Virus record (IMG/VR): IMGVR_UViG_3300034116_000385
Coordinates: 1-39,590 of that record
Length of the DNA: 39,590 nucleotides
Source of the DNA: a virus
Taxonomy: Duplodnaviria > Caudoviricetes
Direction: 5' to 3' (one strand)
This document shows, piece by piece, positions 8,313-39,519 of this stretch. Made by a program: the position numbers and the translations under genes. How positions within the stretch are numbered: the stretch's first letter is position 1; the number at the start of each line of letters is the position of its first letter. The notes under the pieces are model-generated. The model was not told the origin of the DNA and did not search any database. It saw nothing but the letters and a program-made list of their open reading frames with translations.

Positions 8313-10322
8313 TTATGGGTTTAAAGTCATGAAGCGACCGTTAAAGCCAGCATCACTTGAGAACTCACCCTCGCCGTTGGTGCCCATGTGCAAAGCTCGA
8401 CCGTCAGACATCAGGAACTGAAGGTTAAAGGCTGAACCGTATGGGTAGCCAGAGGCGCGATAGTCCACGATTGTTTGGTGCGTGCCACAAGCAGAGCCGT
8501 CTTCCGAGGACCAAGGTCCTGGTAGCAAGACAGGGCGACTATAGGAGACGGTTGTGTTGTCACTGCGGTAAGTGCCCATGTTCACACCATAGCCTAGCAA
8601 GTACATCCGTCCGGCTAAGTCCTGCACCATCCACCCAGTTCCTGCTTCACTGTAAATGTACGGGAAAATGCGCGTGATCTGGCCTCGCGGGAACACGCGA
8701 TCGCTATTTGTAGTTACACCTGCGATGTAGGTAAACGTGCGGTTGCGGGTTGTGTCGCAAATAGCCCCCGGTTGGGTAGGGCTTGACGAGCTAGTCGTCG
8801 TGCCGTTACCAAACTGGCCGTTGCCATTGTAGCCCCAGCAATACAGGTTACCCGCAAGACTAACGTTAGGGTTTCCTGCGCTAAACGAATCTGGGTTTCC
8901 TTCAATCGCAGCCACGGTTACGTAGTAAGCGCAGCCGTTAACATAAAACTCGGCGAAGGTTTGAGAGGTTCCGCAGCGTACGTAGGCGCTTTGGTTTGTT
9001 GTGTTGCCGTTACCAAGGTTGCCAAAGGGGTTGTAACCCGAACCGTACAGTTCACCGTTGTTCTTCAAGTAGTATGAGGAACCGTAGTAGTTCCAACCAC
9101 CTGAGTAGTAAGAACCTTGGTGGCATTCAATGTCGTAGACGTTGGTGGCACCAGAGACTAACTGAGGTGAGGTATACGAGGTTGTGTTGCCAAGGCCAAG
9201 TTGACCTTGCGCGTTGTTGCCCCAAGTGTACAGTTGACCCGTGTTGTTAACGGCCATAACCATGCGAGGTCTAGCGTGCAGCATGCGCACGTTAGTAATG
9301 CCAGACACTAGTTGAGGCGTGGTTTGCGGGGTTGTCGTGTTACCGATGCCGCACTCGCCGTTGCCGTTGTAGCCCCAGGTCCACAGGCGATAGCTGCTGT
9401 CAATAGCAAAAGCGGTGACAAGGTCTGATTCACCGCCGTTAAGTTCTTGCGACACCCAAAGACCAATGATCTTGCAGCTTTGGCCAGACACTGAAGCATC
9501 AGGACCTAAGTAAGGAATCTTGGTCCACGCATACACATCAGTGGTGTGCCCTGCTCCCGCAAGACCCACGCTATTGTAGCCCATGAAGAAGACGTCGCCG
9601 TCCTTAGTCAAAGCCAAAGCAGAGCCAGAACCATTCTGGTGGATTTGTACAAAGTGGTCGCCGGCTCGCATCAAACCAAATTCACCGCTAAACGTCATCA
9701 CAGACGTTAAGTTAGCATGGTTGTGAGTGTGCGCGTATTTACCAGCAAGGCCGTAGGACGTGTCACCGCGAGCAATATACTCATAGCGATCGTTAAGGAA
9801 GGCTGAGTTAAGGTGGCGAGAATAACCAGCTCGACGTGACGAGACGCGTGGTCCAAGGCGCGGGTTTAGCAAGCCAGACGCAATACGCAAGTTGTTGCCA
9901 GCTGCTTCTCCAAGCCACGGCTCATTGCCTGTACCAATCAAGTTTGCAGGCGCGTGGCTGTACTGCGTCTTGTAGGTGTTAACTAGGATTGAGTTGCCAA
10001 CAAAACCAGCGGGCGCTGCCCAGCTAATTCCTGAGCCAGAGGCCGTCAAGACCTGGCCAGCTGCCCCGATGCCAAAGCGAATAGGACCACTACCATTGTG
10101 CGTGGCTAGGTCACCAAGCGTCGTTAGAATGTTTACGCCCTGCACCATGACATCCCAATAAGTTGTATTTGTTGGGACGGTGCCAGCTGCCGGCGGGGTT
10201 AGTTTACAAATGTAAACGCTGCTGTCAGTATAGCTGACAACATCGTCTTTCTCGTATGCCGTTGCGCCGGAGTAAGCTCCGCGCCACGTAAATTTAAGTT
10301 TTCCAAGATCAAGGGTTGCCAT
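8313..10322 (-). CDS. Tail receptor-binding protein with RCC1/BLIP-II-like beta-propeller repeats
   Basis: Repeats WGYNGNGECGIGNTT, WGNNAQGQLGLGNTT, SGYNPFGNLGNGNTT, WGYNGNGQFGNGTTT; N-terminal WRGAY...DDVVSY...YW module; tail position. Confidence 0.8.
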   Translation of the reverse strand: MATLDLGKLKFTWRGAYSGATAYEKDDVVSYTDSSVYICKLTPPAAGTVPTNTTYWDVMVQGVNILTTLGDLATHNGSGPIRFGIGAAGQVLTASGSGISWAAPAGFVGNSILVNTYKTQYSHAPANLIGTGNEPWLGEAAGNNLRIASGLLNPRLGPRVSSRRAGYSRHLNSAFLNDRYEYIARGDTSYGLAGKYAHTHNHANLTSVMTFSGEFGLMRAGDHFVQIHQNGSGSALALTKDGDVFFMGYNSVGLAGAGHTTDVYAWTKIPYLGPDASVSGQSCKIIGLWVSQELNGGESDLVTAFAIDSSYRLWTWGYNGNGECGIGNTTTPQTTPQLVSGITNVRMLHARPRMVMAVNNTGQLYTWGNNAQGQLGLGNTTSYTSPQLVSGATNVYDIECHQGSYYSGGWNYYGSSYYLKNNGELYGSGYNPFGNLGNGNTTNQSAYVRCGTSQTFAEFYVNGCAYYVTVAAIEGNPDSFSAGNPNVSLAGNLYCWGYNGNGQFGNGTTTSSSSPTQPGAICDTTRNRTFTYIAGVTTNSDRVFPRGQITRIFPYIYSEAGTGWMVQDLAGRMYLLGYGVNMGTYRSDNTTVSYSRPVLLPGPWSSEDGSACGTHQTIVDYRASGYPYGSAFNLQFLMSDGRALHMGTNGEGEFSSDAGFNGRFMTLNP

Positions 10323-13733: not shown

Positions 13734-16700
13734 TTACATTCCTTTCTTAATACAGACCACGGCTGCTTCAGCTGCTTTGTGCATGTCAACAGCGTTGACT
13801 TGCTTCTGATCTAGCATCTTAAGCTCGTTGTCCAAGGCGGCTTTAATCGCTGTTCCAAGCTCAGGATCTATGTTTGCCATTTCAGCGTCTAGATTTGCTT
13901 GCAAGGCCTCAAGGTCACTGTCGATAAGTTTGAGGTCGTTGTCCATAACCTTTAAGGCATCAGCCACAGAATCTTTAGGCTCGTTAAGCAACGGCTCAGG
14001 ATCTGCTGCGTTGCTTGGTTGCTTATGGTACGCCTTGGCAATCTTTAGTTTCTGAGCATCAGGCAACTCAAATGGCAAGACAGCATTGGGGTCTGGCAGC
14101 AATTCAAGAATCAAAGTAGGATCACCAAAGTCGTGGGTAGGCTTGATGACTTGCTTAACTCGGAACTTAGCTCCTCTATCAATCAGCAACTCTACTTCGC
14201 TTTTATGTGAGGACACAGAACCAGCTAAGACGGCTTTACTTCCTTCAGGCACAAGTATCTTTGTCAACGGAGCCTTGCCCTTGTAGCTGCCATGCCAAGT
14301 CTTTGCTGTCTCAAAAGAAAACGACGTGCTACTAAAACCGTGCATCGTGATGAAGTGGCCTTCAGCTGCTTTAAGTAGCTCGTAGGCTTTCATGCCATCC
14401 AAGTTCTGGTCCCAGACAAACTGCTTGAGATTAAGGTCTGCCAAGATATTGTTGAAAGTCGTGTAGCGAACGTTGCCGCGCCAAACCTCGTACTTCTCAG
14501 TTGTTTCAGGAAGCTTCTTAAAGACAGCATCTAAGTTGTCAATCCTCTTTTGCATCTCAGGGGAGATGGTTTTACCAAGTACTTCTTTCCCCCACAAGGC
14601 ATTGTTAATTTCGACGTAAGCGCTGCCAGTGTAGCTTTTTAACGCGCTCATCTCTGATGGGGTCAATGACTTCTCAATCTGATCGTAGAACTTATTGAGA
14701 AACTTGTTGGCGTCACTCGTGTTAAAAAACTTGACGGTGTTTGTTTCTTTCGCTACTTCTTTCGCTACCTGGTCGTAGGTTTTTTCTAAGTCAAGGCGAC
14801 GCAAGGCTAGTTTTTCCTTAAGTTCCTCAGCTAGCTTTTTGTCCATGCCTTGCAGCACGGCAGAGTCAACAAGCTTATTGACTTCCTCCTGAGGCACCCT
14901 AAGGATCCTAGCCACGGCTTCTTCTGTATCTTTTAAGCTTACATTACTAAACACATCAGGGTTCTTATCCATGATGCTCTTATAGTCCATCAGCTTTGTA
15001 GTAAACTTGTCGCCTTTTAGTTCACCTTGAGCGCGGTATAACAAGGCGCCACCTGGATCAATACGCCAAACTTGGTTCTTGCCTTCAATCAATTGCATGT
15101 TGAAGTTAGGAGCGTTGCCAACAACGTCCCAGTTTGCCAAGTATGCGTCAATGATCAAGTGCTGCGCAAAAGCTTTTTGCTGCTCTTCAGGTAAAGCTTT
15201 AAATTCCTTAGGACCGATCGTCTTAAACTGCTTGATCCAGTCACTGGCGACCCCAACAACCTGTCTTTGCTCGGTAACCAGGGTTGTCTTTGGCATGGGC
15301 ACGCCGTACCACGTGTACAGGGTTGCAGCAACCCACTCATTCAGTGCTTGATCTTTGCCGTAAAACTTTACGTAGTACTGGCTGTTATCGTTCTTGTCGA
15401 TGAACAAGCCACCCTTGTTTGTACCAAGCTGCTGACCAACACTTTCTAAGTTGTCGATGTCAAACGCTGTGTCGTAGCCAGCAAAAGAGTTGTAGACGTC
15501 TCCAGTATTTTCTAGGTAACCGTCAGGATCAAACATGGCTGCTTCAACAGCAGGTTTTCCTTTAGGATTAAGGTCACTAAATACTTCACTGACGGCATCT
15601 TGAGCAAACATAGACTCCATGGCCTGCTCAGGACCAATGGAAACGTTGTGTTGATTTTGCTTAGGATTAAAAACAGCGTTCTTAATCTCCATGACGTGAG
15701 TCATGTTGTTCTTAGCAAGGTTGTAAGACCCCTTGTATGCGATGTCTAGTGCCGCTTCTTCACTAATAGAAATACCGTGCACAGCAAGCAAATCTTTTAG
15801 GTCTGCAGCAACCTTATTCATATCAATCGTTCCCTGTGTCGAGAACGACTTAGATGTCAGCAGGCCCATAGGACCGCGAGGATTTGGCTTGACAGTCAGG
15901 ATTTGATTGTCAGTAGTTCTTACGTAGAACGCAATGTTGTTTTGCATGCCGTTGACTTTTGCCAACTGCACGGCTTCATCAAACTGAGGATCAGCTAAGG
16001 CGCGGGTGATCTGTGTAGTCGTGATCTTTGCGGCTTTAGGTGATGTCGCCTCGTCCATCAAGGCCATACTTGTAGTCACATCTTCGTATGGCTTAAAGTC
16101 TTTGATTGGACTGCTTTTCTGCTCGAGTATGTTTTCTTCAGGGTCTAGTTTTGTAGGCACACCTTCTGAGCCAATGTTTGGCATGTCCCCACCGGCCTTG
16201 TTAATGGCATCAAGCGGGGTAACCATTCCATTAGGAGCATCAGGCGCATCAAAGTTAACAGGGTAGACCTTGTTTGAAGCACCAACAGTTGCAATCTGGC
16301 CCACTTCAACGTTGTGGCCGTTAGCTGCTTGCTTAATTGCAGTCTCAAGCGCTTGTGCGTGGCTGCGACTACGCAAACCTTTGTAGCCGTCGTAAACTTT
16401 TCCGCCAACAGCAAATAGACCAGCTCCCGCCACAGTACCGAAGGTAATGTTAGTCAAGGAGTCCATCATGTCGTAGTCTGCTTTTTCTTGCGTCTTCGCA
16501 GCGTAGATCAAAGGCTCAACGGCCAATGAACCTACAAAACCTGCTTCAGCACCTCTAGCAAGTCGAGCAGCGGTCACGCCAAGCTTTGCGTACCTAGCCT
16601 CACCTAAGATCGGCACAAAGCCAATGGCAAGACCAACAGGGTCAAAGATAGCCGTACCCATGGCCAAACCAAAACCAATCGAACCATCAACAAAGCCTTG

Positions 16701-17231
16701 AGCTCGATCGAAGGTACTGTTGAGGCGCAGCTCATCGAGTTTTCGTTTGTGTTGAATCTTTGCAACAAGGTTGCTAACTGGCTTATCCCAAGACAAGTGA
16801 CCTGGGATGCCGTACTCCGTGTTTGCTTGATCAGGCTGAATTATCGATGGCCGCTCAGTGAGACTAAACTCCTCAAGTGTTGGGCGGTTTTTCCAGCCTT
16901 GACCGCCACCACCTCGACTTGAGTTAGCCCTGCGGTTGTAAAGACGCTTTAGTTCGTCATCAGTGTTGTTGGTTAACTCTTCAGCTCTGCGAATCTCTCG
17001 CATGCGCTTAAGGGAGTCGATGCCCGTCTCGCCCCAACCAATGTCAATAGCAGCATCAGCAACTTGTCCAGTGGTAGACCTGAGGTCATCAAAACCAAAA
17101 CTCTGAAACCACTTTGAAGGAGCTAACGGAGTAAAGTTAGCCCCGAGCTCTTGAGCTCCACGAAGTTCTGACTCAGTAATTCCTAAGCCATTACTGCGTA
17201 TGTTGACGTCTTTTTTTATTTTTTCAGCCAT
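13734..17231 (-). CDS. Internal virion (ejection) protein with kinase-like and ADP-ribosyltransferase domains
   Basis: Lies between internal virion genes; Gly/Ala-rich hydrophobic N-terminal region; kinase-like motifs at about 14790-15440; VIP2/Alt-type ART motifs (YT..Y..IN..L, VWRG, FSSTS, EVELL) at about 14095-14670. Confidence 0.8.
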   Translation of the reverse strand: MAEKIKKDVNIRSNGLGITESELRGAQELGANFTPLAPSKWFQSFGFDDLRSTTGQVADAAIDIGWGETGIDSLKRMREIRRAEELTNNTDDELKRLYNRRANSSRGGGGQGWKNRPTLEEFSLTERPSIIQPDQANTEYGIPGHLSWDKPVSNLVAKIQHKRKLDELRLNSTFDRAQGFVDGSIGFGLAMGTAIFDPVGLAIGFVPILGEARYAKLGVTAARLARGAEAGFVGSLAVEPLIYAAKTQEKADYDMMDSLTNITFGTVAGAGLFAVGGKVYDGYKGLRSRSHAQALETAIKQAANGHNVEVGQIATVGASNKVYPVNFDAPDAPNGMVTPLDAINKAGGDMPNIGSEGVPTKLDPEENILEQKSSPIKDFKPYEDVTTSMALMDEATSPKAAKITTTQITRALADPQFDEAVQLAKVNGMQNNIAFYVRTTDNQILTVKPNPRGPMGLLTSKSFSTQGTIDMNKVAADLKDLLAVHGISISEEAALDIAYKGSYNLAKNNMTHVMEIKNAVFNPKQNQHNVSIGPEQAMESMFAQDAVSEVFSDLNPKGKPAVEAAMFDPDGYLENTGDVYNSFAGYDTAFDIDNLESVGQQLGTNKGGLFIDKNDNSQYYVKFYGKDQALNEWVAATLYTWYGVPMPKTTLVTEQRQVVGVASDWIKQFKTIGPKEFKALPEEQQKAFAQHLIIDAYLANWDVVGNAPNFNMQLIEGKNQVWRIDPGGALLYRAQGELKGDKFTTKLMDYKSIMDKNPDVFSNVSLKDTEEAVARILRVPQEEVNKLVDSAVLQGMDKKLAEELKEKLALRRLDLEKTYDQVAKEVAKETNTVKFFNTSDANKFLNKFYDQIEKSLTPSEMSALKSYTGSAYVEINNALWGKEVLGKTISPEMQKRIDNLDAVFKKLPETTEKYEVWRGNVRYTTFNNILADLNLKQFVWDQNLDGMKAYELLKAAEGHFITMHGFSSTSFSFETAKTWHGSYKGKAPLTKILVPEGSKAVLAGSVSSHKSEVELLIDRGAKFRVKQVIKPTHDFGDPTLILELLPDPNAVLPFELPDAQKLKIAKAYHKQPSNAADPEPLLNEPKDSVADALKVMDNDLKLIDSDLEALQANLDAEMANIDPELGTAIKAALDNELKMLDQKQVNAVDMHKAAEAAVVCIKKGM

Positions 17232-19549: not shown

Positions 19550-20079
19550 TATTTACCGCCTTTTAATGGTGCCACAGTTACGTCGCTGCGAGTTGCTTTC
19601 TTGCTTCCCCACACGCCCATGTCGTAACCCATGTAAGCTGTTTGAGCGCTGCCAGTAAGGATTGTCCCAAATGCGGCCGTCTTACCTTGGCGAGCAGACG
19701 CTTCACCTTGGAAGCGAGACATGTTGGCTTCGTCTTGGAAACCTTGAGCTTGCAATTGGCCACCGTACAAAATAGCTAACTGCTCCATTGTGCCTTGAAT
19801 AGTCGTGTCTTCTTGTAAGTCAAGGATCGTACCAGACCTGCCCATACCACTGGCCGCCGCAGCTGCTCGCTGTGAGCCAATGAGGCGGCGAAGACGTGAA
19901 GCTTCTGCTTCTGCCTCATAATTTGCCTTCTCAAGAGCGACTTGCTTATTGCGCTCCATGATCTGAGCGTTGTAGTCTGCCGCCTTTTTAGCGTCTTGGC
20001 CTGCTTGGTATTGTCCGTAGGCTTGCACAGCCGTTCCGACTGCGGCGGCGGCAAGAACCATTGTTGATACTGCTGCCAT
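19549..20079 (-). CDS. Internal virion protein, T7 gp14-like
   Basis: 176 aa, Ala/Gly/Gln-rich, hydrophobic N-terminus, QRAAAAASG motif; gene order. Confidence 0.75.
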   Translation of the reverse strand: MAAVSTMVLAAAAVGTAVQAYGQYQAGQDAKKAADYNAQIMERNKQVALEKANYEAEAEASRLRRLIGSQRAAAAASGMGRSGTILDLQEDTTIQGTMEQLAILYGGQLQAQGFQDEANMSRFQGEASARQGKTAAFGTILTGSAQTAYMGYDMGVWGSKKATRSDVTVAPLKGGK

Positions 20080-20528
20080 CAGTGAACTCCTTTCAGGTGA
20101 GCTCGCTCGACAACTGAGTAGCCGAGTTTATTAAATAGTTTCCCGGCCGGGTAGTCATCAGCTACTCTTAGATCTGACAGGGAAACTACGCTTGCTCCCA
20201 TATTTTTTGCCCAATCCTCAAATGCGTTTAAAAGACGCACGGCAGACATGCCTGACCGATGCTCTTCTTGTATCCACCAACCCAGTTCTATGGCAACCTT
20301 GGTCTTTGGTGAAAACCAAAATTGAGACATCATTCCACAGAGGGCACCTATGATTTTACTGTCTTTTTCCGCAACGAGGATAATTCCGTTGTCGAGTAAA
20401 TTACAAAGCGCCTGAATTAAGTCGTCGTCGTTGATCTGGGTGTGATCGGCAAACATTGAGTAGTCGAGAAACGGCCTTGCCATTTCGACGATAGGATCAA
20501 TGTCAGCAATTGTTGCAGGTCTAATCAT
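20079..20528 (-). CDS. GNAT family acetyltransferase (T7 gp13 position)
   Basis: MIRPATIADI start, WWIQEEHRSG acyl-CoA loop, AFEDWAKNMGA, LFNKLGY. Confidence 0.85.
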   Translation of the reverse strand: MIRPATIADIDPIVEMARPFLDYSMFADHTQINDDDLIQALCNLLDNGIILVAEKDSKIIGALCGMMSQFWFSPKTKVAIELGWWIQEEHRSGMSAVRLLNAFEDWAKNMGASVVSLSDLRVADDYPAGKLFNKLGYSVVERAHLKGVH

Positions 20529-28099: not shown

Positions 28100-28552
28100 C
28101 TATCTCCTTTTCTTAAAAAGGTTACCTACAACCTCGTAACCCAGGAGATGGTACAGTTGTGCCGTTCTCTCTGGGGCTACTTGAGTCGACGTGGCCGGAA
28201 CAATTTCCTTTGCACCACGCGCAAATGCCCAATCTTCAAATGCCTGAACTAACTTGACAGCAGCCAAACCACCGCGTTTCGTTGGATCAACGTACAACGC
28301 CAGATCGACTGCCATCTGATCCTTACTGAAATAATACTCTGTTAGCAAACCTAAGTACATGCCGATTATAGTGCCGTCTTTTTCGGCGACGTACAAGAAG
28401 TATTCGTCAGGGTTGGCAACCATCAGGCTCAAGAGATGAGCTACCTTCTCGGGGTTATATGTGCAGACCCCTAAATAAGCTGACTCGTTAAACATCCGTT
28501 CACCAAGCTCGTTGATGATCGGCACGTCTGCTTCGGTTGCTGCCCTGATCAT
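28100..28552 (-). CDS. GNAT family acetyltransferase (second paralog)
   Basis: MIRAATEADV, LYVDPTKRGG, AFEDWAFARGA and LYHLLGY motifs. Confidence 0.87.
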   Translation of the reverse strand: MIRAATEADVPIINELGERMFNESAYLGVCTYNPEKVAHLLSLMVANPDEYFLYVAEKDGTIIGMYLGLLTEYYFSKDQMAVDLALYVDPTKRGGLAAVKLVQAFEDWAFARGAKEIVPATSTQVAPERTAQLYHLLGYEVVGNLFKKRR

Positions 28553-34078: not shown

Positions 34079-34918
34079 ATGGCAAACGAAAGAGGAAAAG
34101 CAATCGATAAGACATTCCTGTCCGTCGATAACGCTGAGGAACGCGGGTTCTTGCACCGTGATTACATCGCCCATTGTCTTCGCTGGACGCACGTCGTCAA
34201 GTGGCTGCATCAAGGCGGTCGTTACAAAACGGCTCGGATTTTAGACGTAGGTTGCGGTAAGGAGATGCCACTGGCAAAGCTCATGCACTCGTCTCGTCTA
34301 GGTCCTCAGTTCTACGCAGCTGCAGACGTCAGCAAATTGTCAATGCCTGATCAGTTCGCCAAGTCAACTTGGAAACCCAGTCAGTTGCTCAGCGAGTGTG
34401 ATGCAGCCGTTTTGAAGCCAGAGCAAATAGAGCAGACGCCAAATACGATCGTCTGTTTCGAAGTTGCCGAACACATCGAGCCAGAGCATTGCCGTCGCTT
34501 GTTGACGAACTTTGGCGCTTTGCTAGAAGACGACGGAGTCCTGTTCATCTCGACCCCTTGCTGGGATCCTGATGTAGGAGCCGCTGCGAACCACGTCAAC
34601 GAGATGACTTACCTTGCCTTTGGTGCTCTTCTTGAAGACATCGGCTGGCGCGTCGAAGGTCACTGGGGCACGTTCGCCTCGATGCGTGATTACAAAGACG
34701 AGTTGCCACCAGCACACAAGGAGGTGTTTGATGCAATGCGAGACTACTACGACAGCAACTACTTGGCGACCATCTTCGCTCCGCTCTATCCTTCACGCAG
34801 CCGCAATTGCTTGTGGCAGCTTAAGTGGAAACCAGGCGGCAGCAGACAATTCCCTGATCTACGTGATGTCGAAGGACGTTGGGGCAGTTCAGAGAAGTGG
34901 CGCGAGCTTCTTGCTTAG
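34079..34918 (+). CDS. Class I SAM-dependent methyltransferase (small-molecule type)
   Basis: RILDVGCG motif I, IVCFEVAEHI, DGVLFISTP, NHVNE; no DNA-methyltransferase catalytic motif seen. Confidence 0.85.
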   Translation: MANERGKAIDKTFLSVDNAEERGFLHRDYIAHCLRWTHVVKWLHQGGRYKTARILDVGCGKEMPLAKLMHSSRLGPQFYAAADVSKLSMPDQFAKSTWKPSQLLSECDAAVLKPEQIEQTPNTIVCFEVAEHIEPEHCRRLLTNFGALLEDDGVLFISTPCWDPDVGAAANHVNEMTYLAFGALLEDIGWRVEGHWGTFASMRDYKDELPPAHKEVFDAMRDYYDSNYLATIFAPLYPSRSRNCLWQLKWKPGGSRQFPDLRDVEGRWGSSEKWRELLA

Positions 34919-34983
34919 TATTCTGGTGGTGATGATCCTAGTGGTCATCACCATTTTTTGGCTAGAAATTAGAAAGGAAAAAC

Positions 34984-35346
34984 ATGTGGAACGACATAAA
35001 AGCATTTCACGAAAAATTTGGTCTGCAATACGAGGGCGAACCCAGAGATCTTCCAAAAGATCTGGCGAGCTTTAGGATTGGCTTCATCTTTGAGGAACTC
35101 GATGAACTCATCATTGCTGAAAATAAAACCGATCAGCTCGACGCGTTGGTGGACCTCTGCTACGTGGTCATGGGCACTGCTTATCTACAAGGCTTCGACT
35201 TCCAAGCCGCGTGGGACCGTGTCCATGCTGCAAACATGGCGAAGGTCCGTGGTCCGTCAGCGCGCAGTCAAGCTTTCGATGTCATCAAGCCCGAGGGCTG
35301 GACTGCTCCAGATCTATCGGACCTAGCAGGAGAAAGCAATGGCTGA
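34984..35346 (+). CDS. MazG-like all-alpha NTP pyrophosphatase (DR2231-like)
   Basis: FHEKF, EELDEL, DALVDLCYV, VHAANMAK and KPEGWTAPD motifs. Confidence 0.85.
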   Translation: MWNDIKAFHEKFGLQYEGEPRDLPKDLASFRIGFIFEELDELIIAENKTDQLDALVDLCYVVMGTAYLQGFDFQAAWDRVHAANMAKVRGPSARSQAFDVIKPEGWTAPDLSDLAGESNG

Positions 35347-35506
35347 CTACGTTAAGTTTGTAGCTGATAGCCAAAAAGACGCCGAAGAAAAGGCTGCTCA
35401 GTACGTCAAGGGTGAAGATCCTATGAGGTCTCCATCAATCTACACGTCTCAGCCCACTGAAAACGGCAAGTGGTTAGTTGTCGTTAAAGTGTGGGGACTT
35501 GACTGA
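35339..35506 (+). CDS. 55-aa hypothetical protein (not in ORF track)
   Basis: AGGAG RBS; MADYVKFVADSQKDAEEKAAQYVKGEDPMRSPSIYTSQPTENGKWLVVVKVWGLD; overlaps both neighbouring genes. Confidence 0.7.
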   Translation: MADYVKFVADSQKDAEEKAAQYVKGEDPMRSPSIYTSQPTENGKWLVVVKVWGLD

Positions 35507-36507
35507 TGATCTTTATTCTTGAAGGACCTGATGGTGTAGGTAAGACTACACTTGCTCAACACATGGCCAAGAAGCTCGGTGCAGTCTATTTGCATCTGAG
35601 TTATCGCTGGCCTGATCACATGTTTGAGTATCACACAGCCGCCATTCGTTGGGCCATTCGCAAAAGCCGCAAGCAACCTGTCATCATTGATAGGTGGTGG
35701 CCAAGTGAAGCCTTGTATGCTGCTGAATATCGTGGTGGTAGTAAGTGGGCGCAGATGGGCCGCATGATGGATCGTGTTGCTCGCAAGCATGGTGCAGTCT
35801 ACATCTACTGTTTGCCTGAAGACCTTGTCGAGTACGAAAAACGCTTTGACAAGCTAAAGACAGAACGAGAAGAGATGTACGACAACGTGCTTGGTGTTGC
35901 TAAGCGTTACATCCACTTGTGGCATGGTGACAAGTCTCACATACCAAACGAGAACTACACTGACTTGCTGCTAAGGACAGGTGGTGTAAAGAATCGAGAA
36001 GACCACGTCAAGTACTCCATTGAAAAGTGGGGAGACAAGCTTGATCTGTTCACAGACTACGTTGCAAATCGCGCAAGTCATTTGCTGTCTACGCAATTGC
36101 CTGACAGCATTGAGGAACCTAATTTCCTTGGTCACATACAGCAAGCGCAGTACCTTATGGTTGGTGAACGCGTCAATCCTAAGTACAACAACTTGTTTTG
36201 GCCTTGGTATGACTATGGTCACTCAAGTCTTTTCTTGGCTCAAGCGCTGCATCAAGTACCTGCACGTGAAGAACTATTTGTGTGGGCGAACTCAATCAAC
36301 TTTGATGGCACAAAGAACACGATGATTGAGAAAGCCTATGAGTTTAAACCAACGTTGAAAGTCGTAGCCCTTGGTAAGACTGCTTTGACGCACGTTACTA
36401 AGGCAGGCATTCCATTGCATGAGCATGTGAAGCATCCTGCTTTCGTAAAACGCTTTGAAGGTGACGTTGACTATCTAAGAGGAGTATTTAGACATGCCAT
36501 CCACTAA
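35506..36507 (+). CDS. dNMP (thymidylate-like) kinase fused to a uracil-DNA-glycosylase-like domain
   Basis: N-terminal IFILEGPDGVGKTT and IIDRWWPSE; C-terminal LMVGE, SSLFLAQAL, VVALGKTA and KHPA. Confidence 0.75.
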   Translation: MIFILEGPDGVGKTTLAQHMAKKLGAVYLHLSYRWPDHMFEYHTAAIRWAIRKSRKQPVIIDRWWPSEALYAAEYRGGSKWAQMGRMMDRVARKHGAVYIYCLPEDLVEYEKRFDKLKTEREEMYDNVLGVAKRYIHLWHGDKSHIPNENYTDLLLRTGGVKNREDHVKYSIEKWGDKLDLFTDYVANRASHLLSTQLPDSIEEPNFLGHIQQAQYLMVGERVNPKYNNLFWPWYDYGHSSLFLAQALHQVPAREELFVWANSINFDGTKNTMIEKAYEFKPTLKVVALGKTALTHVTKAGIPLHEHVKHPAFVKRFEGDVDYLRGVFRHAIH

Positions 36508-37243
36508 CAAAGAATGGTTGAAGACCATTGAACAGTGCATGCGTTGGGGCAACGTGGTTGCTCCTCGCGGTAAGAAGATCAAGGAACTGCTTGGTTATCA
36601 GACGATGATAAGCATGGAGTTTCCTGTGTTGACTGTTGAGGAGCGCAAGCTTGGCTACAAGTTCATGGCAGCTGAGGCTGCGTGGATCTTGAGTGGCGAC
36701 AATCGCGTCAGAACAATTGCACCTTACAGCAAGGCCATCAGCAACTTCAGTGATGACGGCTATTTTTACCACGGTGCTTACGGGCCCATGATTCGCGATC
36801 AATTGCATTTTGTGATTGATGCCTTGAACAGTGATCCTGATACAAGGCAAGCGGTCTTGACCATTTGGCGTCCAAACCCAAGGCCTAGTAAGGACATTCC
36901 TTGCACAGTGTCGATTCAGTTCTTGATTCGTGACGGGCACTTGCATGTAGTAGATACCATGCGCAGTTCAGACTTGTGGCTTGGTTGGCCGTATGACGTG
37001 TTCAACTTCAGTATGCTAGCTCGCTACGTGATCTGCCACTTGAAGCAGAAACCAGAGCTTGGCAACTTGATCTTGCAAGCAGGCAGCATGCACTTGTATG
37101 AAGAGCAATGGTCAGCAGCAGAAGATCTATTGGGCAAAGCCACTGAGGGTCCGGCAGTTATCTTGCCGTGGTTTGAGGATGGCGATGATTTGATTGACTG
37201 GTTATGGGAGCAAGCAGATGGCAACGGTATTCAAGAGACCTGA
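36494..37243 (+). CDS. Thymidylate synthase superfamily enzyme, probably a dCMP (hydroxy)methyltransferase
   Basis: GAYG, DPDTRQA, DIPCT (catalytic Cys), MRSSD, GWPYD and SMHLY motifs. Confidence 0.85.
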   Translation: MPSTNKEWLKTIEQCMRWGNVVAPRGKKIKELLGYQTMISMEFPVLTVEERKLGYKFMAAEAAWILSGDNRVRTIAPYSKAISNFSDDGYFYHGAYGPMIRDQLHFVIDALNSDPDTRQAVLTIWRPNPRPSKDIPCTVSIQFLIRDGHLHVVDTMRSSDLWLGWPYDVFNFSMLARYVICHLKQKPELGNLILQAGSMHLYEEQWSAAEDLLGKATEGPAVILPWFEDGDDLIDWLWEQADGNGIQET

Positions 37244-37826
37244 TCAAGATGCGTACTTTCTGGCTATGGCAACTCTCGTCTCGCTGCGCGCAACGTGTCG
37301 TAGACGCCGCGTTGGTTGTGTACTTGTGGACAGTAATCGCCATGTGCTCGCTACTGGCTACAACGGCGTTGCTCGTGGGCGCGATCATTGTCTTGATCAC
37401 CCATGTGCTGGTGCCGACTTTAAACCTGGCTTGGGGCTGGATCAGTGCGAAGCTATTCATGCAGAGCAAAACGCCATGCTCCAGTGCAAGGACACGCAAG
37501 CCATCGAGACCGCGTACATTACGGTAAGTCCATGCATTACGTGCGTGAAACTATTGATGAACACAGGCTGCAAACGAATTGTTTTCATAGAACCCTATGC
37601 ACACAGTCAAGCAGCACAGCTTTGGAAAGGCGAATGGAAACACTATGGAACAGTTGAGCATGTTTATGCCGAACTCAGGTTGGCGGCCGCCAAAGGAGTT
37701 CCCGAATTTGACGAGCGCCAAGAGGATCTCTTTGGACTGCGAAACGAGGGATCCTCACTTGATGGAGAGAGGTCCAGGCGGAGTGAGGTACGACGGGAAC
37801 GTAGTCGGGGTGAGTCTTGCGACTGA
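37218..37826 (+). CDS. dCMP deaminase family protein
   Basis: RATCRRRRVGCV, TGYNG, HAEQNA, SPCITC; GGGAG RBS before the ATG at 37218. Confidence 0.9.
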   Translation: MATVFKRPDQDAYFLAMATLVSLRATCRRRRVGCVLVDSNRHVLATGYNGVARGRDHCLDHPCAGADFKPGLGLDQCEAIHAEQNAMLQCKDTQAIETAYITVSPCITCVKLLMNTGCKRIVFIEPYAHSQAAQLWKGEWKHYGTVEHVYAELRLAAAKGVPEFDERQEDLFGLRNEGSSLDGERSRRSEVRRERSRGESCD

Positions 37827-39519
37827 AGACGCTGCTTGGTACTTTCCTTTTGCGCATGGAGGTGGAGATAACCTTGATAAGAATCAAGTGCTCCATTTTT
37901 TGGAAGATGTATTGGCACAACCGACGGAGAAAATAGGTGCGAACCTCATATACGACCTTGAGTGGCTGCGTGCAGAAGGCATTCAAGTCAATGGCCCCAT
38001 ACGCGACATCCAAATCGCGGAGCCGCTTATTGACGAGAACCAGTCCAGCTACAGCCTCTCGGCGCTTGCTAAGAAGTACCTTGGCGAAGACAAAGATGAA
38101 ACCCTACTCAGGCAAGCAGCTGTATCTGCTGGAGTCGACCCAAAAGGTGGACTTTGGAAACTTGCAGCCAGGTACGTTGGTCCCTATGCCGAAGCAGATG
38201 CTGCACTCCCTCTCAAGATTTACGACTTACAGAAAGAGATCCTAATCAAGGAAGACTTGTGGGACATCTTTACTCTTGAGTCTGATCTTGTCAACATCAT
38301 GCTTGACATGCGGTTTAAAGGCGTCCGCGTTGACGTCGATAAAGCTGAACAACTAAACGACCAAGGTTTAAAAGATGAAGCCGCGTTACTCGGCGAATTG
38401 AGAGACCTCGTTGGTTACGTGATCGACCCATGGTCAGGAGATGATCTAGGCAGAGCCTTCAAGAAGTTAAACATCTGGTACCCAGAGACTGCTAAGGGCA
38501 ATGCATCATTCACTGGCGATTGGTTGGCTAATCATGAGCTACCAATACCAAGGAAGATTGCTGAGTATCGTAAGCTAAACAAGATGCGTCGTGATTTTAT
38601 TGAGGGCATGGTCCTCAAGATGGAACACAGTGGTCGTATCCATTGTCAGTTTCACGCGTTGCGTAAAGATGAATCAGGTACAAGGTCAGGCAGGTTCAGT
38701 AGCTCTATGCCTAACTTGCAGCAAGTACCTGCTCGTGACGAGCATTGGGGTCCCTTGATTCGTGGTTTGTTCTTGCCAGATGAAGGCATGCATTGGGCTA
38801 GCTGTGATTACAGCCAGCAAGAACCTCGTATCCTTGTCCACTACGCAGACATCCTTGGTTTGAAAGGCAGCGAAGAAGCAGTGAGAACTTATTCTGAATC
38901 TGCTGATACTGACTTCCACCAAATGGTTGCTGACATGGCTGGCATCAAGCGTAAGCAAGCCAAGACCGTGAACCTTGGTATGTTCTACGGCATGGGCATT
39001 TACAAGCTCAGTCAAGAACTTGGTCTCAGTCAAGATGAAGCCAGACCTTTGTTTGAGCAGTACCACGATCGTGTGCCGTTTGTCAGGCAACTCAGTCAGC
39101 GCTGCACTCAGTCAGCTACTCAGAAAGGTTTCATTAAAACCTTGCTTGGTCGCAAGCGGCACTTCGATCTTTGGGAACCTGCAGATAGCCAGAACACTTG
39201 GCCTAACCGTGAGAACCCGTTGAACATGGAGCAAGCAAAGAAAGTCTGGGCAGACAGACCTTTACGCAGGTCAATGACTCACAAGGCACTGAACGCTTTG
39301 ATTCAAGGCGGAGCTGCTGACATGACAAAGAAAGCGATGGTTGACTTGTACAAGGCAGGCGAAATTGCGCACATTCAAGTGCACGATGAACTTTGCTTTA
39401 GTGTAAAAGATCGGGCTCATGGCGAACGCATCAAAGAAATTATGGAGCATTGTGTTAAAATAGCAGTTCCAATCAAGGTCGATTTAGAGATGGGACCTAC
39501 TTGGGGCGACAGCAAATAA
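37645..39519 (+). CDS. polA: Family A DNA polymerase with 3'-5' exonuclease domain
   Basis: Exo LDCET / NLIYD / YAEADA; SGRFSSSMPNLQQVP; motif A DYSQQEPR, motif B KQAKTVNLGMFYG, motif C VHDEL. ATG at 37645 is the probable start. Confidence 0.95.
   Translation: MEQLSMFMPNSGWRPPKEFPNLTSAKRISLDCETRDPHLMERGPGGVRYDGNVVGVSLATEDAAWYFPFAHGGGDNLDKNQVLHFLEDVLAQPTEKIGANLIYDLEWLRAEGIQVNGPIRDIQIAEPLIDENQSSYSLSALAKKYLGEDKDETLLRQAAVSAGVDPKGGLWKLAARYVGPYAEADAALPLKIYDLQKEILIKEDLWDIFTLESDLVNIMLDMRFKGVRVDVDKAEQLNDQGLKDEAALLGELRDLVGYVIDPWSGDDLGRAFKKLNIWYPETAKGNASFTGDWLANHELPIPRKIAEYRKLNKMRRDFIEGMVLKMEHSGRIHCQFHALRKDESGTRSGRFSSSMPNLQQVPARDEHWGPLIRGLFLPDEGMHWASCDYSQQEPRILVHYADILGLKGSEEAVRTYSESADTDFHQMVADMAGIKRKQAKTVNLGMFYGMGIYKLSQELGLSQDEARPLFEQYHDRVPFVRQLSQRCTQSATQKGFIKTLLGRKRHFDLWEPADSQNTWPNRENPLNMEQAKKVWADRPLRRSMTHKALNALIQGGAADMTKKAMVDLYKAGEIAHIQVHDELCFSVKDRAHGERIKEIMEHCVKIAVPIKVDLEMGPTWGDSK

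What the first reader, a model, noticed from the sequence alone, without database searches (positions are those of the whole stretch)
34079..39519. Candidate undescribed pyrimidine-modification pathway directly upstream of the DNA polymerase
Seen: one tightly packed, mostly overlapping run of SAM methyltransferase, MazG-like NTP pyrophosphatase, 55-aa ORF, dNMP kinase-UDG-like fusion, thymidylate-synthase homolog with Asp specificity residue, dCMP deaminase and PolA. Established: T4 makes hmC DNA with a TS-fold dCMP hydroxymethylase (gp42), a dNMP kinase (gp1) and a dCTPase (gp56), then glucosylates it. Inference: the same logic operates here, with a small-molecule methyltransferase and no glycosyltransferase. 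The product could be an O-methylated 5-substituted base such as 5-methoxymethyl-C/U, or plain 5mC/5hmC/5hmU. An alternative is a dCMP to 5m-dCMP to dTMP route with unmodified DNA. The chemistry cannot be read from sequence.
Basis: partly seen in the sequence, partly recalled or inferred. Interest (0 to 1): 0.9.

Follow-up and report, generated by a model that had tools for sequence, protein, structure and literature searches.

The report
Phage methyl-capped hydroxymethylcytosine gene cassette
This lake phage carries a tightly packed gene set predicted to replace the cytosine in its DNA with 5-hydroxymethylcytosine, plus a methyltransferase that travels with such gene sets in many unrelated phages and likely caps that base with a methyl group, which would make a DNA letter (5-methoxymethylcytosine) that I could not find described.

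Summary
All seven genes are real. The thymidylate-synthase homologue has D134/C137/T138/D160/D168, the same letters as T4 dCMP hydroxymethylase, and differs from RB69's hydroxylase and Xp12's methylase. The methyltransferase is tied to that chemistry: 82 of 84 well-flanked loci carry such an enzyme (loci are not all independent), from at least three distant lineages. It sits where relatives have a 5hmC carbamoyltransferase and where T4 has beta-glucosyltransferase. It keeps a Hen1/UbiG-like ExxEH..HxxE site in 136 of 136 sequences. Cultured phage AXL3 has the same cassette; its DNA was cut by only 2 of 37 enzymes, both A/T-only, which argues against canonical, plain 5mC or 5hmU-only DNA. Best reading: T4-like 5hmC substitution (about 0.9), then O-methylation to 5-methoxymethylcytosine (about 0.55). 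The methylated atom and the stage (nucleotide or DNA) are inferred, not shown. My literature searches found no such base. This scan noted the same cassette three times before on other genomes. New variant of a known kind, testable at once on AXL3.

The parts
34079..34918 (+). Class I SAM methyltransferase of a phage-dominated family, 279 aa; invariant E128, E131, H132, H172, E175 (Hen1/UbiG-like site); predicted 5hmC O-methyltransferase
34984..35346 (+). MazG-like NTP pyrophosphatase, 120 aa; predicted dCTPase (T4 gp56 role)
   Evidence: PF01503 over cut-off; phrog_671; present in 81 of 82 MT+TS loci
35339..35506 (+). 55-aa ORF of no known family; accessory, only in the closest relatives
   Evidence: 7 loci
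35506..36507 (+). P-loop dNMP kinase (about residues 1-195, SPbeta YorR-like) fused to a UDG-fold domain (about 205-333); predicted 5hmdCMP kinase plus sanitising glycosylase
   Evidence: UDG domain fused in 55 of 82 loci
36494..37243 (+). Thymidylate-synthase-fold enzyme with D134/C137/T138/D160/D168; predicted dCMP 5-hydroxymethylase, closest solved structure the CMP hydroxymethylase 5b6d
   Evidence: diagnostic positions from PMC13326640
37218..37826 (+). dCMP deaminase; predicted to supply dUMP to host thymidylate synthesis; its non-conserved C-terminal tail overlaps PolA
37645..39519 (+). Family A DNA polymerase with 3'-5' exonuclease domain

Best explanation
The cassette likely makes the phage replicate with 5-hydroxymethylcytosine in place of cytosine, and its methyltransferase is predicted to O-methylate that hydroxyl, which would give 5-methoxymethylcytosine as an anti-restriction base. 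Steps: the MazG-like enzyme would hydrolyse dCTP to dCMP (inferred from family and context). The TS-fold enzyme would convert dCMP plus methylene-THF and water to 5hmdCMP (signature shown, activity inferred, about 0.9). The YorR-like kinase and a host NDP kinase would make 5hmdCTP, and PolA would incorporate it (inferred). The deaminase would divert dCMP to dUMP for host thymidylate synthesis (inferred). The methyltransferase would bind a divalent metal at E128/E131/H132/H172, activate the 5-CH2OH and transfer a methyl from SAM (linkage shown, chemistry inferred, about 0.55). It could act on the nucleotide or on DNA; I cannot tell which. The UDG-fold domain probably removes deaminated products (speculative).
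For: TS signature equals T4 gp42 (D145/C148/T149/D171/D179) and differs from RB69 gp48 (N186) and Xp12 (N162, P166); best PDB match is a CMP hydroxymethylase, E 4e-24. A TS is present in 104 of 129 MT-anchored loci and in 82 of the 84 with at least 3 kb on both sides; 102 of 104 show the full D/C/D/D signature and the other two are cut by contig ends. One of the two well-flanked exceptions has such a TS about 29 kb away. MT and TS trees disagree: L018 MT is 71% identical but its TS 28%; L048's TS matches T4 gp42 at E 1e-68. Slot swap: L117 and L160 have a carbamoyltransferase where MT sits, a family shown to modify 5hmC. In L048 MT follows the hydroxymethylase gene directly, as beta-gt does in T4. 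Best profile hits are the hydroxyl O-methyltransferases UbiG (E 9e-9) and HEN1 (E 1.5e-8), with ExxEH aligned; in HEN1 such residues hold Mg2+. AXL3 DNA resisted 35 of 37 enzymes, including KpnI (13 sites), which fully cuts 5mC DNA, and AccI and AciI, which fully cut 5hmU DNA.
Against: No biochemistry exists for any member. The fold does not discriminate: E. coli 4htf and ChlM score Z 18.6, HEN1 16.6 and N-methyltransferases 15-17. An ExxEH stretch also occurs in coclaurine N-methyltransferase. HEN1's metal binds a vicinal diol, which 5hmC lacks. H172 = HEN1 H860 is assigned by position only; the printed alignment stops before it. AXL3's pattern fits plain 5hmC too: T4gt resists nearly all the same enzymes, and AXL3's MT is only 30% identical to this one. 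9 of 71 TS loci with at least 3 kb upstream and both pelagiphages lack the MT. T4-like MT loci also carry UDP-sugar genes, so a sugar could be the substrate there. Loci are not independent: 129 collapse to 29 clusters at 70% identity, 24 with a TS.
Confidence: 0.55

Rival explanations
1. 5hmC replaces C, but the methyltransferase methylates another atom, most plausibly the N4 amine, giving the isomer N4-methyl-5hmC.
For: Same linkage data; N-methyltransferases score close to O-methyltransferases in fold; N4-methylcytosine is a known DNA base (established knowledge).
Against: No (D/N/S)PP(Y/F) amino-methylase motif (motif recalled; alignment). Strict pairing with hydroxymethylases and occupation of the slot of hydroxyl-acceptor enzymes point to the hydroxyl.
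Confidence: 0.13
2. The DNA holds plain 5hmC and the methyltransferase has another target (an RNA, a protein or a metabolite) and rides along with the operon.
For: Pelagiphages and L135/L137/L144 manage with kinase plus TS only. AXL3's pattern fits T4gt. L208 has no TS within 6 kb, though it is a 12%-complete fragment. The protein is not basic (pI 5.9).
Against: The gene stays with D/C/D/D enzymes across TS replacements and across podo-, sipho- and T4-like genomes in several gene orders, and is fused to a C5-methylase-like domain inside the cassette in L206/L211 and L209.
Confidence: 0.12
3. 5hmC is first substituted (sugar, thiol or amine) by an unrecognised phage or host enzyme, and the methyltransferase methylates that substituent.
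For: UDP-sugar dehydrogenase, epimerase and cytidylyltransferase flank the MT in L048/L055/L059. An atypical C5-methylase-fold protein lies beside or fused to it in 10 of 129 loci. Hen1's site suits a diol.
Against: No glycosyltransferase or C5-methylase family in 5 of 5 near-complete or complete MT genomes searched, this one included (two of six searches lacked a positive control), and no spare conserved gene in the cassette.
Confidence: 0.1
4. The deaminase turns 5hmdCMP into 5hmdUMP, so thymine is the replaced base (5hmU or methoxymethyl-U).
For: The deaminase is in 75 of 82 loci; the UDG-fold domain hints at uracil chemistry.
Against: AXL3 is cut by AATT and TTAA enzymes, resists G/C-site enzymes and encodes ThyX; 5hmU DNA resists only about 8% of enzymes.
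Confidence: 0.04
5. The TS makes 5-methyl-dCMP or dTMP, giving Xp12-type 5mC DNA or unmodified DNA.
For: TS plus deaminase also sit together in Xp12. The window encodes no ThyX.
Against: Asp at the L143 position, unlike Xp12; no DHFR among 46 ORFs scanned, whereas Xp12 has one beside the pair; AXL3 resists KpnI.
Confidence: 0.03

Closest known systems
T4 glucosyl-5hmC pathway (gp42, gp1, gp56, cd, alpha/beta-glucosyltransferases)
   Same: Same TS active-site letters; dNMP kinase, dNTP pyrophosphatase and dCMP deaminase beside it; a tailoring enzyme next to the hydroxymethylase gene.
   Different: No glucosyltransferase found; a class I methyltransferase instead; MazG-fold pyrophosphatase, YorR-like kinase with a UDG-fold domain, and PolA in a 40-kb podovirus-type genome.
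5hmC carbamoyltransferase cassette (Yang et al. 2021, PMC8670742)
   Same: Published co-occurring domains are TS, PF01503 and dCMP deaminase; two loci of the same TS subfamily (53% and 47% identity) carry it in the MT slot.
   Different: Carbamoyl from carbamoyl-phosphate/ATP versus a predicted methyl from SAM; never seen with the MT (0 of 104 loci).
Stenotrophomonas phage AXL3 and Pseudoxanthomonas phage PW916 cassette
   Same: Same order MT, NTP-PPase, kinase(-UDG), TS, deaminase; TS 49% identical with the same signature.
   Different: Siphoviruses with ThyX; MT 30% identical; published as ordinary dTMP synthesis, with the DNA modification unidentified.
5-hydroxy-dCMP synthases of RB69/DLP3 (Lee et al. 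2026, PMC13326640)
   Same: TS fold, acidic residue at 143, Asp at 177.
   Different: They have D169N; this enzyme keeps Asp (D160), so 5-methoxycytosine is not predicted.
Hen1 and UbiG O-methyltransferases
   Same: Best profile matches; ExxEH and STP motifs align.
   Different: Far below the NCBIfam cut-offs; about 16% structural identity; different context and predicted substrate.

Membership tests
dCMP 5-hydroxymethylase (T4 gp42 / MilA type) | Catalytic Cys and Asp at the ThyA N177 position | tested here: met
   C137, D168
dCMP 5-hydroxymethylase (T4 gp42 / MilA type) | Acidic residue at ThyA L143 with D169 retained | tested here: met
   D134, D160; criteria from PMC13326640
dCMP 5-hydroxymethylase (T4 gp42 / MilA type) | Forms 5hmdCMP from dCMP and methylene-THF | not testable with these tools
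   needs an assay
5-hydroxy-dCMP synthase (RB69 gp48 type) | D169N | tested here: not met
   D160 here, N186 in RB69
Xp12-type 5-methyl-dCMP synthase | Non-acidic residue at position 143 and an adjacent DHFR | tested here: not met
   Xp12 N162 with DHFR beside it; here D134 and no DHFR hit. One reference sequence only.
Canonical ThyA or dUMP hydroxymethylase | Asn at position 177 | tested here: not met
   D168
T4-type glucosyl-5hmC system | A DNA glycosyltransferase gene | tested here: inconclusive
   None found, but the AGT and BGT searches had no positive control and the record is 97% complete
C5 DNA methyltransferases | PF00145 domain with catalytic PC motif | tested here: not met
   No PF00145 match in this genome; controls rang in 9 of 14
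N4C/N6A DNA amino-methyltransferases | (D/N/S)PP(Y/F) motif (recalled) | tested here: not met
   FEVxEH at that strand end; no such Pfam hit
Hen1 2'-O-methyltransferases | ExxEH metal ligands | tested here: met
   E128, E131, H132 align with HEN1 EVIEH; invariant
Hen1 2'-O-methyltransferases | Fourth ligand H860 | tested here: inconclusive
   Invariant H172 lies after the STP motif, but the printed alignment ends before it
Hen1 2'-O-methyltransferases | Family-level score | tested here: not met
   TIGR04074 14.9 bits against a cut-off of 340
UDG superfamily | UDG fold with G-E/D, Asn and HP motifs | tested here: met
   Foldseek family-4 UDG hits; G220, N262, H310, P311 conserved
Family 4 UDG | Fe-S cluster cysteines (recalled) | tested here: not met
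   No conserved Cys in 38 sequences
MazG-like dCTPase | Specificity for dCTP | not testable with these tools
   Family match only (PF01503)

The most novel reading that the evidence does not exclude
A widespread set of aquatic and soil phages (podo-, sipho- and T4-like) replace every cytosine with 5-methoxymethylcytosine, an undescribed natural DNA base, made by a Hen1-like metal-dependent O-methyltransferase that caps 5hmC. This would hide the DNA from ordinary restriction enzymes and from 5hmC- and sugar-reading type IV enzymes, and would give a one-step SAM-dependent handle on 5hmC.
Probability: 0.45. Interest if true: 0.82.

Novelty: new variant of a known kind. Interest (0 to 1): 0.7.

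Why it matters
It would add a new base to phage DNA chemistry and explain the unidentified modification of cultured phage AXL3, whose cassette was published as ordinary thymidylate synthesis. It would be the smallest cap on 5hmC, needing only SAM, which suits 40-kb phages; the family is large (1,335 proteins). An enzyme that alkylates 5hmC from SAM or SAM analogues could be a reagent for labelling 5hmC in epigenomics. One LC-MS run on AXL3 or PW916 DNA settles most of it.

Tried and rejected
5-methoxycytosine via a hydroxylase: rejected, D169N absent. ThyX as proof that the TS is spare: present in AXL3, L055 and L153 but absent from this genome and from 5 of 5 relatives searched, so not general. 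Restriction-site avoidance: only mild palindrome depletion and GATC enrichment, uninformative without a comparison set. XbaI and PdmI as a sign that AXL3 has more than 5hmC (both partly cut T4gt): XbaI has 1 site and PdmI's 21 sites sit in GC-rich DNA, too weak to use. Fold search as a guide to substrate: generic class I hits only. RNA evidence: one RNA run gave nothing; another gave six short 90-99% contigs of a relative, which does not show transcription. The 55-aa ORF as a pathway part: rejected. The careful MT tree did not finish; quick trees were used, and the TS tree flags long branches, so only the large identity gaps are relied on. Iyer et al. 2013 could not be read, so an earlier computational mention of this cassette is not excluded. 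No complex prediction was run.
Full report
Setting. The window is a whole virus record, 39,590 bases, estimated 97% complete, with podovirus-type head, portal, tail and internal virion genes. Runs holding half or more of the region's words are 14 lake-water and 1 estuary metagenome, one of which may be the source; contigs of two other DNA runs cover 30 of 30 bins.

The TS homologue. Its best PDB match is a CMP 5-hydroxymethylase (5b6d, E 4e-24), ahead of every true thymidylate synthase. Lee et al. 2026 (PMC13326640; I read the abstract, the introduction and sections 24, 28, 29) give three diagnostic positions in E. coli ThyA numbering: N177D for dCMP, L143D/E for a non-methyl product, D169N for hydroxylation. 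Aligned with reference enzymes taken from GenBank records, the window enzyme reads D134/C137/T138/D160/D168; T4 gp42 D145/C148/T149/D171/D179; RB69 gp48 E/C/T/N/D; Xp12 N/C/P/D/D. So it is predicted to be a dCMP hydroxymethylase. The activity itself is not shown.

The methyltransferase is tied to that chemistry. In the GenBank phage collection it matched 5 records (4 phages: AXL3 twice, PW916, two spring-water phages), all among the top 7 TS hits; the top two TS hits, pelagiphages HTVC119P and HTVC200P, have kinase plus TS only. I gathered 129 MT-anchored loci (80 kept of 112, 45, 4). 104 of 129 show a TS; among the 84 with at least 3 kb on both sides, 82 do. 102 of the 104 have D/C/D/D, and the other two are cut by contig ends. 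Of the two well-flanked exceptions, L210's genome has a D/C/D/D enzyme about 29 kb away and L208 is a 12%-complete fragment. The loci are related: 63 clusters at 90% identity (53 with TS), 29 at 70% (24 with TS). In the other direction, 64 of 80 TS-anchored loci (80 kept of 87) have the MT, 62 of the 71 with at least 3 kb upstream. Among the 82, the MazG-like gene is in 81, the deaminase in 75, the kinase in 64 and the fused UDG domain in 55.

The link survives replacement of the TS. In quick trees (47 and 55 selected rows) the L018/L020 MT is sister to the window's (71% identical) while its TS is 28-31% identical and on a separate long branch. The MTs of L048/L053/L064 nest with those of L039/L044/L051, but their TS form another clade, and L048's matches T4 gp42 at E 1e-68. 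The TS tree warns of long-branch joins, so I lean on the identity gaps, not the deep order.

It fills the tailoring slot. Of the 9 well-flanked TS loci without MT, L117 and L160 have a carbamoyltransferase just upstream of the same genes, L163 has a PLP enzyme and two unknowns, L147 a 5'-nucleotidase, and five show nothing recognisable. That carbamoyltransferase family modifies 5hmC in DNA, RNA and 5hmdCTP (PMC8670742; passages and section 12). None of 104 MT+TS loci has it. Among 23 T4-type hydroxymethylase loci the MT is in 3 (the query's contig and two close relatives), directly after the TS gene, where T4 has beta-gt; others have TAGT, AGT-like, PLP or HMUDK genes (representatives scanned, not all).

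What the methyltransferase looks like. The model is confident (pLDDT 90.8) and is a plain class I fold. Foldseek ranks CmoM first (TM 0.54); VIA-align gives 4htf and ChlM Z 18.6, HEN1 Z 16.6 (rmsd 2.9, 187 aligned) and N-methyltransferases close behind, so fold does not fix the substrate. A profile of 49 diverse members hits UbiG (E 9e-9) and HEN1 (E 1.5e-8) first, with the ExxEH and STP motifs aligned. In HEN1, Glu796, Glu799, His800 and His860 hold the Mg2+ that binds the ribose hydroxyls (PMC10781085, passages). E128, E131, H132, H172 and E175 are invariant, and the motif is in 136 of 136 distinct proteins of 230 aa or more. Against: a similar stretch occurs in an N-methyltransferase, HEN1 binds a diol, and the fourth ligand is matched by position only. 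The neutral-to-acidic pI (5.9; median 6.1) does not favour DNA binding, while fusion to a C5-methylase-like domain in L206/L211 and L209 does, so the stage is open.

A cultured test case. AXL3 has the same five genes in the same order. Its DNA was cut by 2 of 37 enzymes, TasI and Tru1I; the authors left the modification unknown and read the genes as dTMP synthesis, noting a separate ThyX (PMC7504290, passages only; I did not see the gel in Figure S2). Against Flodman et al. 2020 (PMC7653180; part 2 of the text, passages, and part 1 of 3 of the spreadsheet): KpnI fully cuts 5mC DNA and not T4gt; AccI and AciI fully cut 5hmU DNA. AXL3 resisted all three and has 13 KpnI sites. This argues against canonical, plain 5mC and 5hmU-only DNA, but it does not separate 5hmC from a capped 5hmC, and a modified G is not formally excluded. 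The PW916 paper (passages) reports no restriction data.

No other tailoring gene. Five glycosyltransferase families and PF00145 gave 0 of 5 genomes each, this one and AXL3 included; the AGT and BGT searches had no positive control.

Mechanism and odds. 5hmC substitution about 0.9; the MT acting on the 5hmC pathway about 0.75; O-methylation of the hydroxymethyl 0.55. Shown: genes, residues, folds, co-occurrence, slot swaps. Inferred: every activity.

Novelty. Five library searches for such a base or enzyme returned no relevant paper (listings only), the listing showed none by title or abstract start, and the 2026 NAR paper has no mention of methyltransferase, methoxy or AXL3. The library lacks most subscription journals, and Iyer et al. 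2013 was not available. This scan has noted the same cassette three times on other genomes with the same reading; I had reached that reading and the AXL3 link before looking, and these notes are not independent evidence. It is a member of the T4-type pre-replicative 5hmC pathways by signature, with a predicted new tailoring step: a new variant of a known kind, interest 0.7.

Noticed in passing
L206/L211:4918-6837, L209:4717-6726 (fusions); L196, L200, L201, L202, L210, L214, L205 (adjacent or partial); L226:6254-7468: An atypical C5-DNA-methylase-fold protein keeps the PPC cysteine but has ESV for ENV and an aromatic residue in the SAM-binding motif; it is fused to or near the methyltransferase in 10 of 129 loci. 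It may activate 5hmC rather than methylate C.
   Followed up: partly
L163:2742-5989; L233, L238, L239: dCMP-hydroxymethylase clusters with a PLP-dependent enzyme and two unknown genes in the tailoring slot: a possible amino-acid-type hypermodification of cytosine, like those known for 5hmU.
   Followed up: no
L005, L006 (HTVC119P, HTVC200P); L135, L137, L144: T7-like pelagiphages carry kinase plus a D/C/D/D TS annotated as thymidylate synthase, with no tailoring gene nearby: cultured candidates for plain 5hmC DNA.
   Followed up: partly
L172, L174, L176, L188-L190; T4-type loci: A DUF1599-like small gene replaces the P-loop kinase in the cassette (weak Pfam hit), a hint that this domain has a kinase-like role.
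   Followed up: no
window 37645-37826: The deaminase's tail overlaps the first 182 nt of PolA; the overlap is 29-182 nt in relatives. PolA begins MEQLSMF, resembling a sliding-clamp-binding motif (motif recalled).
   Followed up: partly
window 13734-17231 (-): Large internal virion protein with an ADP-ribosyltransferase domain (PF03496, E 2e-26; Alt-like PHROG) and a weak HipA-like kinase hit.
   Followed up: no
window 20079-20528 (-), 28100-28552 (-), 8313-10322 (-): Two GNAT acetyltransferases among virion genes and a tail fibre with RCC1-like repeats.
   Followed up: no
L237:4783-7502 and L240: Inositol-1-phosphate synthase and an HMUDK-like gene downstream of a T4-type dCMP hydroxymethylase (only L237 scanned): possibly an inositol-based cytosine modification.
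   Followed up: no
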